Assembly: GCF_013315695.1 (NCBI RefSeq)
Contig: NZ_CP054353.1
DNA from: Escherichia coli
GTDB lineage: Bacteria; Pseudomonadota; Gammaproteobacteria; Enterobacterales; Enterobacteriaceae
Strand: one strand, 5' to 3'
Length of the DNA: 64,000 nt
Shown piece by piece: positions 54,001 to 60,000 of this stretch; the first letter of the stretch is position 1; every line of letters begins with the position of its first letter. The position numbers were made by a program.

Positions 54001-57000
54001 TGATGAATAAAAAATATGAACTGGTTGTTAAGGGGATAAATAATTACGGGGATAAGGTTACTGTTACTGTGAAGCCGGAAGGTGACGGGCAAGCGTCGCT
54101 GTTGTTGCCAGATGTGGCGATTAGTCTTGACCGTACTGAAGGTGCCACGCTGGAGTTTTACGAAGCTGAGGCGAAAAAGCAGGCGAAGCAGTTTTTCATG
54201 GATGTTGCTGCCGGGTTATGTGAATGGAACGAACCGTTGCCGGAAAAGCGCCCCGTAATTTTAGAGGCGCAGGATGTGTTGATAACCTACAAAGGAAAGC
54301 TACCGGGAAGAATTACTTGTTCTCTGAAGATGCCGCCGTCAACACTGCGGTCAGAAAAAGATGATGTTGAATCACGTATTGAAAAACTGGAGAGCTACGT
54401 CGTTGAGCTGAATAAGAAATGGTCGATATTGGTGCCTTCTGGCGATGAAAAGCAGTTTGCTGCGTTTGACGATTATTGTCGGAAAGTGATGAGCAGAAAT
54501 CTCGCAGAGTGTTTCAGTATTCATAATGATAATTTCAGTGAGCTGGAATGGGAGTGTAACCGGCCATCCTTTGTTGTATCCGGTGATGCTGGGAAAATAA
54601 CCATCTCAGAAAATGGGAAAGTAACACCTCCATCGCACCAGCACAGTGAGGAGCTCATTGAATTTGCCATTGATTACCTGAAGAACAATAAAAAGCAGGG
54701 GCTGATGAAGCGCGTTGGCCGTTGCATGGGATATCTTCAGGTAGCCGCTGAGATTGAAGCGCTGGCCAGTGGTGCTGATAAGGATGCAATTGTGCGGGAG
54801 GCTCTTCTTCGTGATTTTAATACTCCACCCTTTAAAAAAGTGCCGGCTTACTGGCTTCATCCGGGGCTGACTTATCTTAAAGTGCGTATTTAGTGGGCCA
54901 GGGACAGCGGCTGAATATTTAATATATCCATGAACACCAAAATCAAATACGGCCTGTCGGCTGCCGTTCTGGCGCTGATTGCCGCTGGTGCGCCTGCGCC
55001 TGACATTCTCGACCAGTTTCTGGATGAAAAGGAAGGCAACCACACCACAGCATACCGTGATGGTGCAGGTATCTGGACCATCTGCCGTGGTGCCATCATG
55101 GTGGATGGCAAACCTGTCGTTCCGGGCATGAAGTTGTCGAAGGAAAAATGCGACCAGGTTAACGCCATTGAGCGTGATAAAGCGCTGGCGTGGGTGGAGA
55201 AAAACATCAGAGTGCCGCTGACCGAACCCCAGAAAGCGGGGATCGCGTCATTCTGTCCGTACAACATTGGTCCCGGTAAGTGTTTCCCGTCGACGTTTTA
55301 TAAACGAATTAATGCAGGTGATCGCAGGGGAGCGTGTGAGGCGATTCGCTGGTGGATTAAGGACGGTGGCAGAGACTGCCGTATCCGCTCAAACAACTGT
55401 TATGGTCAGGTATCCCGTCGTGACCAGGAGAGCGCGCTGGCGTGCTGGGGAATCGACAGATAAGCAGAATATTTTGCTGAAAAATAAGGCATGGCCACGC
55501 GGGCGGATAACACGAAATCCTGCGAACTGGCGAAACGTAAGTGAATAAAAGTAAAAACCCCGTTTGTTGGCACCAAGCGGGGTTTTGTGTTTCTGACCTT
55601 GAGTAAGGCAAGGGAGAACATGGCGAAGTATAAACGAATTCTGTTGAGGTTGACTATGAAAAACGGCCTTGAACTGAAAGCGCCTGTAACTGATGACATC
55701 AGCAGAGCACTGGCTTTTGCCATTAAGTGGGTGGCGGTCGGTGTTGCTGTGTCCCCGATGCTGTATGGGCTGGCAAAACTGGTCATTGCGTTGAAATCAT
55801 GAAGGGAGGATTAAGCATGCCAGACAAACTCATAACGCTGGCGAAGATCCTCTGTGTAATTGTCGGCATTTCATTTTCACTAATGCTGGTTGCTCTTTTT
55901 CTTTCCATGGCCTGGATGATGTTGTCTTCGTCGGGGTTGCTGGGGTGAACATAAACCGAATGCTTTCCGCGTTTATCGTTATTCTGCTGGTGGCCTGTGG
56001 TGCGCTGTGGATGGCAACAGACCATTACCGTGATAACGCGATTACCTACAAAGCGCAGCGCGATAACAAAGCCAGTGAACTGAAGCTGGCGAACGCAACC
56101 ATTACTGATATGCAGGTGCGCCAGCGCGATGTTGCTGCGCTCGATGCAAAATACTCGAGGGAATTAGCCGATGCGAGAGCTGAAAATGAAACTCTTCGCG
56201 CTGACGTTGCCGCTGGTCGTAAGCGCCTGCGGATCAACGCCACCTGTCCAGGCTCCGTGCGTGAAGCCCCCACCACCTCCGGCGTGGATAATGCAACCGG
56301 CCCCCAACTGGCAGACACCGTTACACGGGATTATTTCACCCTCAGAGAGCGGCTGATGACGATGCACAAGCAACTGGAAGGGGCACAGGACTATATCCGC
56401 ACTCAGTGCCTGAAATAAGTTTTGTTGATGCGCCGTATCGTCGCTATATTCCCTCATTAACAGAGACCGCAGCCCGACAGGGAGACTCCTCTGCGCGAGT
56501 GTGCGGGGATAATTAAAAACGATGCTCACCGGGTTTTTACCGCGTTAATGATTCGCGGGTTTATCCCGGTGCGATGGTGGAAGAAACAGGAAGCTGTATT
56601 ACAGAAAGTGCTACTACTGTATCCCGATGCGATGTATGTAATGTGAGTCAGATAATGGCACAGGATGTGGTGATGTGGCAGTCTGGAACACAGGATATAT
56701 TGTCAGAATAAGACCCGTAGGAATAAAAATGAAAAGACGCCTTTTACTACTTTTTCTGTTATCTGTCCTGGCAGTGGGATGCTCGCAGCAAAAAGCTGAT
56801 GAGCCCCGGCAATTAGTGACGGTGTATCCACGATATCCGGAATATGCTGCAGCAAATTATATCAAGGGGCTGGTTGAGGTTAAGTTCGATATTGGTGCTG
56901 ATGGGACTGTGACACGGATCGTTTTTCTCCGCTCAGAGCCTCATAATTTGTTTCGTGATGAAGTGGTGAAGGCCATGGCGAAATGGCGATTTGAAAAGAA

Positions 57001-60000
57001 TCGCCCCTGTCAGGGAGTGAAGAGACAATTTATCTTTACGCCGTCACGTCCCTGATGCTTCCAGGTAGAGAGGGGCTGGACGCAGGAGAAAAATGAAAGA
57101 GCCAGCGGTTATATTTTTGTCATGGCTGACGAGGAATGATGGAAGAAGGCGTTGTATGCCACACAACGCCTCACTGTTCATTTCTTCTTTTTCTCTGGTG
57201 GAACCCGATGAATAAGAGTTGCACTGGTTTCCGATGAGATGGCGATATACTCGGGCAAAGTATGCTGGCAGTTTTCCAACTGGTCAAAAATACCTGCTCT
57301 CGTCTGTTGCAATGCCTGCAGCATGCGGCGGCAATGCGCCTTGCTTTTACTAACCATCTTTCCTTCCTCTATCAGTCGCTGCGTGAACTCATCATGTAAT
57401 ACCAGGTAAATGCGGATGTTATCGGTTTTGGCTACGCAGCATAGTACAAAACGGACAGGTGCATCCCGGGACGGGGGAGGCGTCACATGTCCCTGTGATG
57501 GTTGTTCCGGGTAATGCACTGTGTGGGGCATAAAAATGTCCGATAATTTTACTTTCTACCGCAGTTAGTTGATTCGTTGGTCCTGGTAGCACATTGGGCG
57601 AGGATTTAAATGCCAGGCAACTGAAGGATGATGTTGCAAGGGAGATAGCGAGAATATTTCTGATTTTCATTTGATGATGCCTCTGTGTGAAATGACGGTA
57701 AACGACGCACTTGTGCCGGCACATAATAGCAAGCACCATAATAGATCAGATTCGATTCTTGCTGTAAGTGATAATCATTCTCGTTTTCGGGTCCTTTCCG
57801 TCGATCCAACAGGTTACGGGGCGGCGACCTCGCGGGTTTTCGCTATTTATGAAAATTTTCCGGGAACCATGTCCGGTTTCTCTTCAAGTTAACTATATGA
57901 AAAATAAAAAAAGAGGTCTTCTGTGAACCGGACATGCACAAAAAATAGACATGTAAGCCGGACATGACCGGTTTTGTTGTGATTGTGAAGTGAGAGTTTT
58001 TGCGAGGTGAGGAGTGGCTACGCAGACTGAAGTTGCCAGGCATTTAAGTCTGACCGATCGCCAGCTTCGCAGATTGCAGAAATTGCCGGGTGCCCCGATA
58101 TCGAATAAGCGAGGGCAACTGGATCTGGATGCCTGGCGCGATTTTTACATATCGTATCTGAGAAGAAGTAAAAACGATGTGCCTGATGGCGATAGCGAAG
58201 ACGACTATGAGGAGAAATTGCTTATTGCCAGATGGGAACTGACAGCAGAACAGGCTGTTACACAGCAGTTAAAAAATGAGGTGTCAAAAGGAAAACTTAT
58301 TGACACCGGGTTCTGTATTTTTGCCCTCAGCAAGCTGGCAATGGCGTTATCCAGTACGCTTGATTCCATCCCTTTATCCATGCAGCGACAGTTTCCTGAT
58401 TTAACACCGCGCCATCTTGACCATCTGAAAACCCTTATTGCGAAGGGGGCAAATCAGTGTGCGCGGGCGGGGGATAAATTACCGGATTTACTCGATGAAT
58501 ATATCAGAGCAACAACTGAATAATATGATGAGTGCTGTCACAACAGCATTACAGCCCCTGATAAGGGCATTGCCGGTGACGCCAGTTGAATGGGCTGATC
58601 AAAATTATTATCTGCCTAAAGAATCTTCATATGGTGAGGGAGAATGGAAAACGCTGCCGTTCCAGATCGCCATCATGAACAGCATGGGGAATGATCAGAT
58701 CCGGACTGTTAATCTGATTAAATCTGCCCGTGTTGGCTATACAAAGATGTTGCTGGGGGTGGTCGGGTATTTTATTGAGCATAAATCCCGAAACAGTCTG
58801 CTTTTTCAGCCCACGGATTCTGCCGCTGAAGATTTTATGAAGTCTCACGTGGAGGCGACGATTCGGGATGTGCCATGTCTGAAAGACCTTTCTCCATGGC
58901 TGGGGCGTAAACATCGTGACAATACTCTCACGCTGAAACGCTTTTCATCGGGTGTGGGCTTCTGGTGCCTGGGCGGCGCTGCCGCCAAAAACTACCGTGA
59001 AAAATCCGTGGACGTGGTCTGCTATGACGAACTTTCCTCGTTCGAACCGGATGTCGAAAAAGAGGGTTCGCCAACCCTGCTTGGGGATAAACGTATTGAG
59101 GGCTCTGTATGGCCCAAATCCATTCGCGGCTCGACGCCTAAAATCAAAGGCACCTGCCAGATCGAAAAAGCGGCCAACGAGTCGGCGCATTTCATGCGTT
59201 TTTATGTGCCCTGCCCGCACTGTGGGGAGGCGCAGTATCTGAAATTTGGCGATGAGTCCACGCCTTTTGGCCTTAAATGGGAGAAGGACAGCCCCGAAAG
59301 CGTTTTCTACCTCTGTGAACATCATGGCTGCGTGATCCATCAGTCTGAGCTTGACCAGAGCAACGGGCGGTGGATCTGTGAAAACACGGGGATGTGGACC
59401 CGCGACGGTCTGACGTTTTTCAGCGCTGCGGATAATGAAATTCCGCCGCCGCGCTCCATCACATTCCATATCTGGACGGCGTACAGTCCGTTCACCACCT
59501 GGGTACAGATTGTCTATGACTGGCTGGATGCACTGAAAGATCCCAACGGCCTGAAAACCTTTGTGAACACCACGCTGGGCGAGACCTGGGAAGAGGCCGT
59601 GGGCGAAAAACTCGATCACCAGGTGCTGATGGATAAGGTTGTGCGTTACACGGCTGCGGTGCCTTCCCGGGTGGTTTATCTGACGGCGGGCATTGACTCG
59701 CAGCGAAACCGTTTTGAGATGTATGTCTGGGGATGGGCTCCGGGAGAGGAAGCCTTTCTGGTGGATAAAATCATCATTATGGGGCGTCCCGATGAGGAAG
59801 AGACGCTGTTACGTGTGGATGTGGCGATCAACAAAAAATACCGCCATGCAGACGGAACCGAAATGACCATTTCCCGTGTCTGCTGGGACACCGGGGGGAA
59901 TTGTCTATCAGAGGTCAAAAAAACACGGTGTTTTCCGGGTGCTGCCGGTAAAAGGTGCATCTGTTTATGGCAAGCCGGTGATCACCATGCCAAAAACCCG

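What the first reader, a model, noticed from the sequence alone, without database searches (positions are those of the whole stretch)
56675..57739. Moron cluster at the Rz-cos junction: lipoprotein with TonB C-terminal-like domain and convergent secreted-protein ORF
Where lambda carries bor, this prophage has a plus-strand lipoprotein (lipobox LAVGCS) whose mature part resembles the TonB C-terminal domain, and minus-strand ORFs including an 83-aa signal-peptide protein with several cysteines. A phage-borne TonB-C-like lipoprotein could interfere with TonB-dependent uptake (receptor-based superinfection exclusion or colicin/phage resistance). That would be notable next to an island encoding the TonB-dependent FyuA.
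Basis: partly seen in the sequence, partly recalled or inferred. Interest (0 to 1): 0.45.

Follow-up and report, generated by a model that had tools for sequence, protein, structure and literature searches.

The report
Phage-borne TonB-mimic lipoprotein and metal-linked moron
At the right end of a lambda-like prophage sit two real but unstudied cargo genes: an outer-membrane lipoprotein that copies only the receptor-docking domain of the host's TonB energy transducer, probably as an energy-dead decoy, and a small secreted four-cysteine protein whose chromosomal relatives look zinc-starvation regulated.

Summary
Window 56729-57055 (+) encodes a 108-aa prelipoprotein. Its body aligns without gaps to E. 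coli TonB residues 150-235 (38% identity; Pfam TonB_C E=7e-13), and the best PDB sequence and fold matches are all TonB C-terminal domains. It evolves under purifying selection (dN/dS 0.13). It is gp73 of classical phage 21 and occurs in about 1,220 of 5,426 complete E. coli genomes, annotated as 'TonB family protein' but uncharacterised in the literature I could search.

The convergent 83-aa ORF (57670..57419, -) is also a real gene (dN/dS 0.10-0.20). It belongs to a rare family with no Pfam or NCBIfam model: a signal peptide followed by four invariant cysteines. Its non-phage relatives sit behind Zur-box-like palindromes, next to COG0523 or ZnuA genes. The phage copy sits behind a Fur-box-like site beside cosQ. 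The 117-aa minus ORF is spurious at its 5' end, but a 59-aa core may be real.

The most likely mechanism for the lipoprotein is inferred, not shown: an outer-membrane-tethered, energy-dead TonB mimic that occupies TonB boxes and blocks TonB-dependent phages and colicins. The neighbouring FyuA island reflects adjacent tRNA integration sites rather than a shown functional link. The finding is a new variant of a known kind, of moderate interest.

The parts
55945..56418 (+). Rz i-spanin gene (context; last lysis gene upstream of the cluster). The embedded Rz1-like ORF is at 56171-56356.
   Evidence: Pfam Phage_lysis E=2e-47. The ORF list is, and Rz1 (PF06085) is called in the near-identical locus L016.
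56729..57055 (+). Gene for a 108-aa prelipoprotein with a TonB C-terminal domain (phage 21 gp73, WP_000830178). The mature protein is 91 aa.
   Evidence: Pfam TonB_C 49.2 bits. Matches PDB TonB CTDs at E~1e-14 and Foldseek's top 14 hits are all TonB CTDs. dN/dS is 0.13 against the JLK-2012 copy. Annotated in phage 21 and in RefSeq.
56729..56782 (+). Signal peptide plus lipobox (MKRRLLLLFLLSVLAVG-C18). Ser19 at +2 predicts outer-membrane sorting.
   Evidence: Direct reading against PROSITE PS51257 and the +2 rule. The G-C is conserved, with Ser or Thr at +2, in the 72% and 41% identical phage homologues.
57147..57171 (.). GC-rich hairpin between the convergent units, probably a bidirectional terminator.
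   Evidence: Inverted repeat of 12-nt arms, 92% complementary. It forms a 9-12 bp stem in the MFE folds of both strands. It starts 7 nt after the stop codon of the 59-aa minus ORF.
57178..57357 (-). Candidate 59-aa gene (MVSKSKAHCRRML...; phrog_4843), probably co-transcribed with the 83-aa gene.
   Evidence: It has a GAGGAAGGAAAG Shine-Dalgarno and is followed by the hairpin. In the 94%-identical variant L016 it stays open with 3 synonymous and 3 conservative changes. It is also less diverged (3.3%) than its flanks (~8%). Full-length match to phrog_4843. Not proven.
57262..57399 (+). The 45-aa ORF annotated by PGAP (WP_000881609) and extended in phage 21 (gp75). Judged not coding.
   Evidence: Variant L016 introduces two stop codons and otherwise changes that are almost all non-synonymous.
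57419..57670 (-). Gene for an 83-aa secreted protein. It has a signal peptide with a conserved A-x-A|F cleavage site and a mature ~63-aa protein with four invariant Cys (GTCxAxPVPGCxCPFCxxLR).
   Evidence: Homologues and alignments. dN/dS is 0.10-0.20. DNA homology to L006 stops at its stop codon. No Pfam or NCBIfam model.
57419..57531 (-). 5' part of the mechanical 117-aa ORF (57531..57178) that overlaps the 83-aa gene. Not coding.
   Evidence: dN/dS is 1.2-6.8 in this frame and L009 has a stop codon. The 'longer homologues' are frameshift fusions with the 83-aa ORF.
57712..57723 (.). Perfect 12-bp palindrome TGTGCCGGCACA just downstream of two TATTAT -10-like elements on the minus strand. 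A possible operator in the 5' region of the 83-aa gene.
   Evidence: Direct reading. Not tested.
57769..57783 (.). Fur-box-like site TGATAATCATTCTCG, 6 nt left of cosQ and ~100-113 nt upstream of the 83-aa gene's ATG.
   Evidence: It is one of only 3 matches with <=2 mismatches to TGATAATNATTATCA in 64 kb (expected 0.11). The other two fall in the irp2 and ybtA/ybtP promoter regions of the HPI. The box is a perfect match in L006-L008 and in lambda.
57789..57795 (+). cosQ (GGGTCCT). The cosN nick follows at 57818/57819.
   Evidence: Mapped from the phage 21 annotation and from the end of its genome, and read in the sequence.
58014..58523 (+). Terminase small subunit (Nu1), the right-hand boundary of the cluster.
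   Evidence: Pfam Phage_Nu1 E=1e-18 and RefSeq annotation.

Best explanation
The cluster holds two convergent cargo units at the extreme right end of a lambda/21-type prophage.

Unit 1 (+ strand, same strand as the late genes) makes a prelipoprotein. This is shown by homology. By inference from the lipobox and the +2 rule, it is cleaved and acylated at Cys18 and sorted to the periplasmic face of the outer membrane. [quoted passage not shown] The protein has no TonB transmembrane anchor and no proline-rich spacer, so it cannot transmit energy from ExbB-ExbD.

The most likely mechanism is inferred. It acts as a competitive, energy-dead TonB mimic. It would dock by beta-strand augmentation onto the TonB boxes of TonB-dependent transporters, or onto those of incoming colicins. 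That would uncouple them from the real TonB and block TonB-dependent phages and bacteriocins, at some cost to siderophore uptake. It is transcribed at least with the late operon after induction. Whether it is also made in lysogens is unknown.

Unit 2 (- strand) makes a small secreted four-cysteine protein, and probably a 59-aa protein as well. Chromosomal relatives of the 83-aa protein look like members of the zinc-starvation (Zur) regulon. The phage copy lies behind a Fur-box-like site. It is therefore most likely a metal-starvation-induced periplasmic protein, possibly metal-binding.
For: Identity of unit 1:
- Pfam TonB_C is above the curated cutoff.
- It aligns without gaps to E. coli TonB 150-235 at 38% identity. 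The YP motif and the core aromatics F180, F202, W213, Y215(F) and F230 are kept.
- The Foldseek top 14 hits are all TonB CTDs, including the FhuA and BtuB complexes 2GRX and 2GSK.
- It is a maintained gene, not a decaying fragment. dN/dS is 0.13, and the 108-aa length and the lipobox are conserved between copies that are 72% identical.
- A 41%-identical Klebsiella phage homologue is also a lipoprotein (LLGC|SSS).
- In three diverged lineages the gene sits just downstream of the lysis genes on the late strand.

Mechanistic precedent:
- The TonB box pairs with beta3 of the TonB CTD (PMC11658791).
- The periplasmic TonB domain made in vivo inhibits FhuA and FecA transport (Howard 2001, cited).
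- The phage lipoproteins Llp and Cor sit on the inner leaflet of the outer membrane and inactivate FhuA from the periplasmic side.

Unit 2:
- Purifying selection.
- An invariant A|F cleavage site and four invariant Cys.
- Zur-box-like palindromes with 1-2 mismatches upstream of four of seven non-phage relatives, and 3 mismatches in a fifth. Neighbouring genes include COG0523 and ZnuA.
- A Fur-like box upstream in the window, with the HPI promoters serving as an internal positive control.
Against: - No experiment or paper addresses this protein.
- TonB residues linked to receptor recognition are not conserved: Q160 becomes Y, L or H; R158 becomes T, K or S; R166 becomes Y in all three phage versions; R204 becomes D or E. 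The beta3 strand is KRQFIFTP rather than VVNILFKI. Binding to TonB boxes is therefore not guaranteed, and the target could be something else.
- No convincing sigma-70 promoter was found upstream, so expression in lysogens is unproven.
- A general TonB inhibitor would be costly in a host that invests in yersiniabactin.
- The structural model has low confidence (pLDDT 61).
- For unit 2, the Fur-like box keeps its position relative to cosQ rather than to the gene. It is also present in lambda, which lacks the 83-aa gene, so it may serve cos or another gene.
- The Salmonella copies have no such box, and the AlphaFold model is uninformative (pLDDT 50).
Confidence: 0.4

Rival explanations
1. The TonB_C lipoprotein is a late, lysis-phase function rather than a lysogen defence. 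Made from the late transcript, it would engage the envelope (outer-membrane transporters or peptidoglycan) to help or time envelope disruption. Alternatively it would stop receptor-linked loss of progeny, as T5 Llp does for FhuA.
For: In three diverged phage lineages the gene lies just downstream of the lysis genes, on the same strand. No independent promoter was detected. PHROGs files it in a family labelled 'Rz-like spanin'.
Against: These phages already carry complete Rz/Rz1 spanins. The PHROG label is best explained by the shared lipoprotein signal, since the weak hits to other spanin PHROGs cover only residues 1-49. More than 300 nt of spacer upstream and a hairpin downstream look like moron architecture. 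The site after the lysis genes is also a general insertion hot spot for cargo such as bor.
Confidence: 0.2
2. The protein poisons TonB itself rather than the receptors. The outer-membrane-tethered domain would pair with the C-terminal domain of host TonB, or with ExbD, and trap it at the outer membrane.
For: The residues kept between the phage proteins and TonB are the core aromatics F180, F202, W213, Y215(F) and F230 plus the YP motif. The receptor-facing residues are changed. TonB CTD crystallises as dimers (1IHR, 1QXX and 1U07 appear).
Against: Conserved aromatics are also simply the hydrophobic core of the fold. No interaction was modelled or measured. The physiological outcome would be the same as for the decoy model, so present data cannot separate the two.
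Confidence: 0.15
3. It is a host-fitness or virulence factor of the Bor/Iss type. It would be an outer-membrane lipoprotein that changes envelope properties, such as serum resistance, and would be unrelated to TonB-dependent transport.
For: It occupies the genome position where lambda has bor. It is common in human and extra-intestinal E. coli isolates. Phage 21's other cargo includes bor and sitABCD.
Against: It has no similarity to Bor. The conserved body is a TonB_C domain whose only known role is docking to TonB boxes. By the +2 rule the protein faces the periplasm, not the cell surface.
Confidence: 0.1
4. It is a functionless leftover of a captured tonB gene, as labels such as 'partial TonB-like protein' and 'TonB fragment' imply.
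For: Database names such as 'Partial tonB-like membrane protein' and 'TonB fragment'.
Against: dN/dS is 0.13. Length and lipobox are conserved across copies at 72% and 41% identity. It has its own signal peptide and Shine-Dalgarno. It is intact in about 1,220 genomes.
Confidence: 0.03

Closest known systems
TonB C-terminal domain (Pfam PF03544; E. coli TonB residues ~150-239; PDB 1U07, 1XX3, 2GRX, 2GSK)
   Same: Homologous over the whole domain: gapless alignment, 38% identity, the same secondary-structure order (alpha1-beta1-beta2-alpha2-beta3), and the YP motif and core aromatics conserved.
   Different: It has no N-terminal membrane anchor and no proline-rich spacer. A lipoprotein signal replaces them, so the domain hangs from the outer membrane, not the inner one. 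It ends four residues before TonB's C-terminus, with prolines in the tail. The equivalents of Q160, R158, R166 and R204 are changed. It scores far below the NCBIfam TonB equivalog cutoffs (69 against 315 bits).
Recombinant periplasmic TonB fragments (Howard, Herrmann, Stratilo and Braun 2001, J Bacteriol 183:5885)
   Same: A TonB C-terminal portion without the energy-coupling anchor, exported to the periplasm. This is reported to inhibit transport through FhuA and FecA (cited in PMC9841981). It is the direct experimental model for the proposed mechanism.
   Different: Those were artificial, soluble, overproduced fragments of E. coli TonB itself. This is a natural, diverged, phage-borne and lipid-anchored version. 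I could not read the original paper.
Phage superinfection-exclusion lipoproteins Llp (T5) and Cor (phi80, N15, HK022, mEp167)
   Same: Small phage-encoded lipoproteins of the inner leaflet of the outer membrane. They act on the periplasmic face of a TonB-dependent transporter and shut it to phages, colicin M and ferrichrome (PMC11436027).
   Different: No homology was detected: Pfam and PHROG hits are to TonB_C only. Llp and Cor are specific for FhuA and use their own fold. A TonB mimic would in principle address every transporter that has a TonB box.
Lambda Bor / Iss
   Same: A lipoprotein cargo gene in the Rz-cos interval of lambdoid phages.
   Different: Unrelated sequence, and bor lies on the opposite strand. 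Bor is absent from this window but coexists with the TonB_C gene in phage 21.
Zur-regulon accessory genes (COG0523 CobW-like GTPases, ZnuABC, ZinT), as a comparison for the 83-aa protein
   Same: Chromosomal relatives of the 83-aa protein have Zur-box-like palindromes in their promoters and lie beside COG0523 or ZnuA genes. The protein is exported and rich in Cys and His.
   Different: No sequence family has been assigned and no metal binding is shown. The copy in this window has a Fur-type box, not a Zur-type one, and that box may belong to the cos flank.

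Membership tests
TonB_C domain (PF03544 / TIGR01352) | Profile match above the curated threshold | tested here: met
   PF03544 scores 49.2 bits against a cutoff of 24.6. TIGR01352 scores 47.4 against 27.1.
TonB_C domain (PF03544 / TIGR01352) | TonB CTD fold (two helices packed on a three-stranded sheet) | tested here: met
   The AlphaFold single-sequence model has the matching order of elements, though at pLDDT 61. The Foldseek top 14 PDB hits are all TonB CTDs, with TM 0.45-0.65. 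Sequence homology alone already implies the fold.
TonB_C domain (PF03544 / TIGR01352) | Conserved YP motif and core aromatic residues | tested here: met
   Y36-P37 correspond to Y163-P164. F53, F75, W86, F88 and F103 correspond to F180, F202, W213, Y215 and F230.
TonB energy-transducer protein (full-length TonB) | N-terminal transmembrane anchor that couples to ExbB-ExbD | tested here: not met
   The N-terminus is an 18-residue lipoprotein signal. Homology to TonB begins at TonB residue ~150.
TonB energy-transducer protein (full-length TonB) | Proline-rich periplasm-spanning spacer | tested here: not met
   Only about 8 residues lie between Cys18 and the domain.
TonB energy-transducer protein (full-length TonB) | NCBIfam equivalog score | tested here: not met
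   The best hit is NF008084 at 69 bits against a cutoff of 315.
Bacterial lipoprotein (PROSITE PS51257 lipobox; Lol +2 rule) | A basic n-region, an uncharged h-region, [LIVMFWSTAG](2)-[LIVMFYSTAGCQ]-[AGS]-C with the Cys at position 15-35, and a non-Asp residue at +2 for outer-membrane sorting | tested here: met
   MKRR-LLLLFLLSV-LAVG-C18-S19 fits by direct reading. The same holds in the JLK-2012 copy (VMGC-T) and the Klebsiella copy (LLGC-S). No LipoP or SignalP run and no acylation data are available.
Cor / Llp superinfection-exclusion lipoproteins | Sequence or fold homology to Cor or Llp | tested here: not met
   The Pfam, PHROG and PADLOC scans return TonB_C only.
Cor / Llp superinfection-exclusion lipoproteins | Blocks infection through a TonB-dependent transporter | not testable with these tools
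   Needs plating assays with T1, phi80 and T5 on cells that express the gene.
Rz1-type o-spanin (the PHROG 1267 label) | A short proline-rich mature lipoprotein encoded within or beside Rz that pairs with the Rz C-terminus | tested here: not met
   The window has its own Rz and embedded Rz1-like ORF. This protein's body is a globular TonB_C domain encoded 310 nt downstream of Rz.
Moron (autonomous cargo cassette) | Its own terminator and promoter, patchy distribution among related phages, and a location between functional modules | tested here: inconclusive
   Patchy, independent distribution of both cassettes is shown, and a terminator-like hairpin is present. The promoter scan was no better than chance.
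Fur-regulated gene (83-aa gene, window copy) | A Fur box that overlaps the promoter | tested here: inconclusive
   The box matches with 2 mismatches at 57769-57783, and the only other matches in the window lie in the HPI promoter regions. However, it lies ~60 nt upstream of the best -10-like elements, and its position tracks cosQ in lambda too.
Zur regulon (83-aa protein family, chromosomal relatives) | A Zur-box palindrome in the promoter and zinc-homeostasis neighbours | tested here: met
   Mismatches to TGTTATAWTATAACA are 1 in L025, L027 and L029, 2 in L017 and 3 in L018. Each site is unique or nearly unique within its locus. Neighbouring genes are COG0523 (L027, L003) and ZnuA-type ABC (L017). 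This is not met for the window copy itself.

The most novel reading that the evidence does not exclude
A natural anti-TonB decoy. Temperate phages of E. coli and Klebsiella would have turned the receptor-docking domain of TonB into an outer-membrane-tethered lipoprotein. That protein would jam the TonB boxes of many transporters at once, giving broad exclusion of TonB-dependent phages, colicins, microcins and pesticin. This would differ from the receptor-specific Cor/Llp strategy. On this reading it travels with a metal-starvation-responsive secreted four-cysteine protein, so the right end of phage 21-type genomes would be a small module for metal uptake and envelope traffic.
Probability: 0.3. 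Interest if true: 0.65.

Novelty: new variant of a known kind. Interest (0 to 1): 0.42.

Why it matters
TonB-dependent transporters are the entry route for many phages (T1, phi80), colicins, microcins, pesticin and siderophore-antibiotic conjugates. A widespread prophage gene is present in roughly a fifth of complete E. coli genomes, including ST131-type clinical strains. If it damps TonB coupling, it would affect phage-therapy host range, bacteriocin sensitivity, uptake of cefiderocol-type drugs and iron acquisition. It would also be a ready-made natural inhibitor of the TonB-TonB box interaction, which is being pursued as an antibiotic target (PMC9841981). The gene has sat in the genome of the classical phage 21 unnoticed, so the tests are cheap. 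Separately, the 83-aa protein defines an unnamed family with promoter evidence for zinc-starvation control. That adds a candidate to the Zur regulon, and the perfect Fur-type palindrome next to lambda's cosQ is an odd detail worth a gel shift.

Tried and rejected
- The single-sequence AlphaFold model of the mature lipoprotein gave only pLDDT 61. I used it for fold retrieval only and drew no surface conclusions from it.
- The AlphaFold model of the 83-aa protein, built with a 17-sequence alignment, was uninformative (pLDDT 50). No fold search was attempted.
- The promoter/terminator consensus scan of 56380-58050 gave nothing above chance on the relevant strands.
- The Rfam scan of 56300-58100 found no known RNA family.
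- PADLOC found no defence-system model for any of the three ORFs.
- The Logan contigs L014 and L015, brought in as 'diverged' homologues of the 117-aa ORF, are riddled with indels even inside the TonB_C gene. I discarded them for selection analysis.
- The 165-aa 'homologues' of the 117-aa ORF are frameshift fusions with the 83-aa ORF.
- I tried to infer phage 21's receptor from the J C-terminus. It is only ~47% identical to J of the lambda-type phage HK629, and phi80, N15 and HK022 were not among the sampled hits shown, so no receptor could be assigned.
- The search for related loci with the broad alignment A5 failed for lack of a conserved stretch. With A1 it returned only four loci.
- Howard et al. 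2001 (PMC99666) is not held and is cited second-hand.
- Literature searches for a characterised phage TonB-like protein found nothing relevant.
- I rejected a functional link to FyuA and the HPI as unsupported. The adjacency follows from neighbouring tRNA integration sites.

Full report
**What is there**

The interval between the last lysis gene and cos is 56419-57788. Rz spans 55945-56418 (Pfam Phage_lysis E=2e-47). cosQ lies at 57789-57795 and the cosN nick at 57818/57819, both mapped from the annotated phage 21 genome and read in the sequence.

The whole 1.7-kb segment is 99.9% identical to many E. coli chromosomes. It is about 98-99% identical to the right end of classical phage 21 (OL657228) and to phages ev017, Perceval and PhiR47_2. 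The 745-bp part downstream of the TonB-like gene is found in 1,231 of 5,426 complete E. coli genomes, and 1,150 of those copies are at least 99% identical. The feature is therefore real, common and already annotated: 'TonB family protein' in RefSeq, 'TonB C-terminal domain protein' in phage 21, and 'partial tonB-like membrane protein' in older records.

**The plus-strand gene**

The start supported by a Shine-Dalgarno sequence, by the signal peptide and by both annotation pipelines is the ATG at 56729, giving 108 aa.

- **Signal peptide.** The N-terminus MKRRLLLLFLLSVLAVG-C18-S19 fits the PROSITE lipobox rule by direct reading. Ser at +2 predicts Lol-dependent sorting to the outer membrane (established +2 rule).
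- **Domain.** The rest of the protein is a TonB C-terminal domain. Pfam PF03544 scores 49.2 bits against a cutoff of 24.6, and TIGR01352 scores 47.4 against 27.1. phmmer against PDB gives E=1.4e-14 to E. coli TonB (1U07), and every significant hit is a TonB CTD.
- **Alignment.** The alignment to E. coli TonB 150-235 has no gaps and is 38% identical. The YP motif and the core aromatics F180, F202, W213, Y215(F) and F230 are retained.
- **Fold.** A single-sequence AlphaFold model is of low confidence (pLDDT 61), but its secondary-structure order fits a TonB C-terminal domain. Foldseek returns TonB CTDs as its top 14 PDB hits, including the FhuA-TonB and BtuB-TonB complexes.
- **Not a TonB.** The protein has no membrane anchor and no proline-rich spacer, and it misses the NCBIfam TonB equivalog cutoffs by a wide margin (69 against 315 bits).

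**It is a maintained gene, not a fragment**

A 72%-identical copy sits in JLK-2012, Lys8385Vzw and several Stx1a phages. Between the two copies dN/dS is 0.13, against 1.4-1.8 in the other two frames. The 108-aa length, the G-C lipobox and a Ser/Thr at +2 are all preserved.

A 41%-identical homologue in Klebsiella phage ST13-OXA48phi12.4 is also a lipoprotein (LLGC|SSS) with the same truncated TonB_C body. In all three lineages the gene lies just downstream of the lysis genes on the late strand, although the packaging modules differ. DNA homology between the 21-type and JLK-type copies covers only the coding sequence, so the gene moves as a bare cassette.

**How it most likely works**

This section is inference. 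The TonB box of transporters pairs as a parallel strand with beta3 of the TonB CTD (PMC11658791). [quoted passage not shown] 2001, as summarised in PMC9841981; the original is not held). The phage lipoproteins Llp and Cor already show that an inner-leaflet outer-membrane lipoprotein can shut a TonB-dependent transporter from the periplasmic side.

A TonB CTD held about eight residues from the outer-membrane lipid anchor and unable to receive energy is therefore best read as a competitive TonB mimic. Its expected effect is exclusion of TonB-dependent phages and bacteriocins, at some cost to siderophore uptake.

Several cautions apply:

- The residues equivalent to TonB Q160, R158, R166 and R204 are changed. 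Q160 is Y, L or H in the three versions. L is the classical Q160L suppressor allele mentioned. R166 is Tyr in all three.
- beta3 is KRQFIFTP. Specificity could therefore differ, and the partner could be TonB or ExbD rather than the receptors.
- No promoter stood out upstream. Only late, Q-antiterminated transcription can be assumed from lambda biology, and expression in lysogens is open.
- I found no publication on the protein. The phage 21 genome announcement does not discuss it.

**The minus strand: the 83-aa gene**

The 83-aa ORF (57670..57419) is a genuine gene.

- **Homologues.** Proteins of 82-84 aa at 55-77% identity occur in E. coli, Salmonella, Klebsiella and Citrobacter. An exhaustive profile search of 1.8 billion representatives finds only 31 clusters, nearly all of 79-104 aa.
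- **Selection.** dN/dS among four loci is 0.10-0.20 in frame and 0.9-2.3 out of frame. In the last 25 codons, 14 of 15 differences from L006 are synonymous, and homology stops at the stop codon.
- **Conserved features.** Invariant features are the A|F signal-peptidase site and four cysteines in GTCxAxPVPGCxCPFCxxLR. No Pfam or NCBIfam model covers the family, and its AlphaFold model is uninformative.
- **Mobility.** The gene is an independent cassette. It sits at the same Rz-Nu1 junction in other E. coli prophages together with a DUF3950 gene but without TonB_C. It sits beside bor, an omptin and a NEL effector in Salmonella salamae, and on a Klebsiella plasmid beside FUR-family and CobW genes.

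**The minus strand: other ORFs**

The 117-aa minus ORF overlaps the 3' end of the 83-aa gene. There it shows dN/dS of 1.2-6.8 and a stop codon in one relative. Its 'long homologues' are frameshift fusions.

Its 3' 59 codons (57357..57178) may be a real second gene. They have a strong Shine-Dalgarno and are followed at once by a GC-rich hairpin at 57147-57171. In the 94%-identical variant L016 they stay open with 3 synonymous and 3 conservative changes. In the same variant, the antisense ORF that PGAP annotates (57262-57399) acquires two stop codons.

**Metal-regulation leads for the minus-strand unit**

The pattern TGATAATNATTATCA (the Fur 7-1-7 consensus, taken from my own knowledge) has three matches with at most 2 mismatches in the 64-kb window, against 0.11 expected.

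- One match is at 57769-57783, 6 nt from cosQ and about 100-113 nt upstream of the 83-aa gene.
- The other two fall in the irp2-ybtA and ybtA-ybtP intergenic regions of the yersiniabactin island (ORF map). From my own knowledge these are Fur-regulated promoters, so they act as a positive control.
- The box is perfect in L006-L008 and also in lambda itself, at 48452-48466. In lambda the downstream minus-strand gene is an unannotated DUF3950/YlcI-YnfO-type ORF.

Because the box keeps its place relative to cosQ, it may belong to the cos flank rather than to the gene. I treat Fur control of the window copy as a lead only.

The evidence is stronger for the non-phage relatives of the 83-aa protein. 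They carry Zur-type palindromes (TGTTATAWTATAACA) just upstream:

- 1 mismatch in Buttiauxella noackiae (position -36), L027 (-89) and L029 (-105).
- 2 mismatches in L017 and 3 in L018.
- Each site is unique or nearly unique within its locus.
- Their neighbours include a same-strand COG0523 CobW gene with its own Zur boxes and a ZnuA-type ABC operon.

The family therefore looks like a zinc-starvation periplasmic protein that phages have picked up.

**Context**

The window runs from the HPI (fyuA near 2357-4378, through ybtS and an integrase) to tRNA-Asn, mtfA and tRNA-Ser, and then into the prophage. The adjacency to FyuA reflects two neighbouring tRNA integration sites. The module itself travels on free phages and on many prophage backbones, so I see no evidence of a functional tie to FyuA.

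The prophage is probably defective. terL has an 11-bp deletion at 59898 relative to strain AR_0017, which splits the reading frame. The integrase is frameshifted in the closest reference genome. There is no bor in the window.

**Comparison and verdict**

The plus-strand product is a member of the TonB_C domain family and is not a TonB. If it works as proposed, it acts like the artificial periplasmic TonB fragments and resembles Llp and Cor in location and purpose, but it is not homologous to them. Its existence is already annotated. What is new is the case that it is a selected, lipid-anchored TonB mimic conserved across three phage lineages, together with a concrete, cheap test.

The 83-aa gene belongs to an unnamed family with promoter evidence for Zur control. 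I rate the finding a new variant of a known kind, of moderate interest (0.42). Confidence in the decoy mechanism is about 0.4.

Noticed in passing
window 59898 (terL, 58438-60412): An 11-bp deletion relative to E. coli AR_0017 splits the large terminase reading frame into ORFs 58438..60096 and 59876..60412. The prophage is probably packaging-defective. The integrase is also frameshifted in the closest reference genome.
   Followed up: partly
L020 2553-2567 (lambda NC_001416 48452-48466) and L020 2210..2404 minus strand: Phage lambda has a perfect Fur-type palindrome TGATAATCATTATCA 6 nt left of cosQ. About 150 nt downstream on the minus strand lies an unannotated 64-aa ORF of the DUF3950/YlcI-YnfO type. 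The same box is perfect in L006-L008 and has 2 mismatches in the window.
   Followed up: partly
L025 ~1336-1350; L027 2912-2926 and 1562-1581; L029 1280-1294; L017 3894-3908; L018 ~3962-3976: Non-phage relatives of the 83-aa protein have Zur-box-like palindromes in their promoters. They lie beside COG0523 (CobW) or ZnuA-type ABC genes, which suggests an undescribed Zur-regulon family of small exported four-cysteine proteins.
   Followed up: partly
window 23599-23613 and 24770-24784: The only other near-matches to the Fur 7-1-7 consensus in the window lie in the irp2-ybtA and ybtA-ybtP intergenic regions of the yersiniabactin island. I used them as an internal positive control.
   Followed up: partly
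L022 8968-11001 (phage 21, OL657228 21967-24502): Phage 21 carries sitBCD, annotated as iron/manganese ABC transporter subunits, downstream of its tail fibre genes. Its cargo is therefore rich in metal-uptake functions besides bor and the TonB_C module.
   Followed up: no
window 57712-57723: A perfect 12-bp palindrome TGTGCCGGCACA follows two tandem CTATTATG (-10-like) elements in the 5' region of the 83-aa gene. It could be an operator, and it is not conserved in L006.
   Followed up: no
window 56527-56571: A long imperfect inverted repeat (18-nt arms, 72% complementary) lies between Rz and the TonB_C gene. A similar sequence follows Rz in L006. Its function is unknown.
   Followed up: no
proteins P0097, P0099: The motif P-G-C-x-C-P-x-C-x-x-L-R of the 83-aa family recurs four to five times in large, low-complexity, Asn/Ile-rich proteins that start with a region I read as ubiquitin-like. 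These are probably eukaryotic and the resemblance may be convergent.
   Followed up: no
L012 2968-3168 and L013 2968-3168 (minus strand): In JLK-2012 and Lys8385Vzw the TonB_C gene is followed by a convergent YlcI/YnfO (DUF3950) gene. This is the position taken in the window by the 59-aa and 83-aa minus-strand genes. A leftward small-gene unit next to cos seems to be a recurring feature of lambdoid right ends.
   Followed up: no
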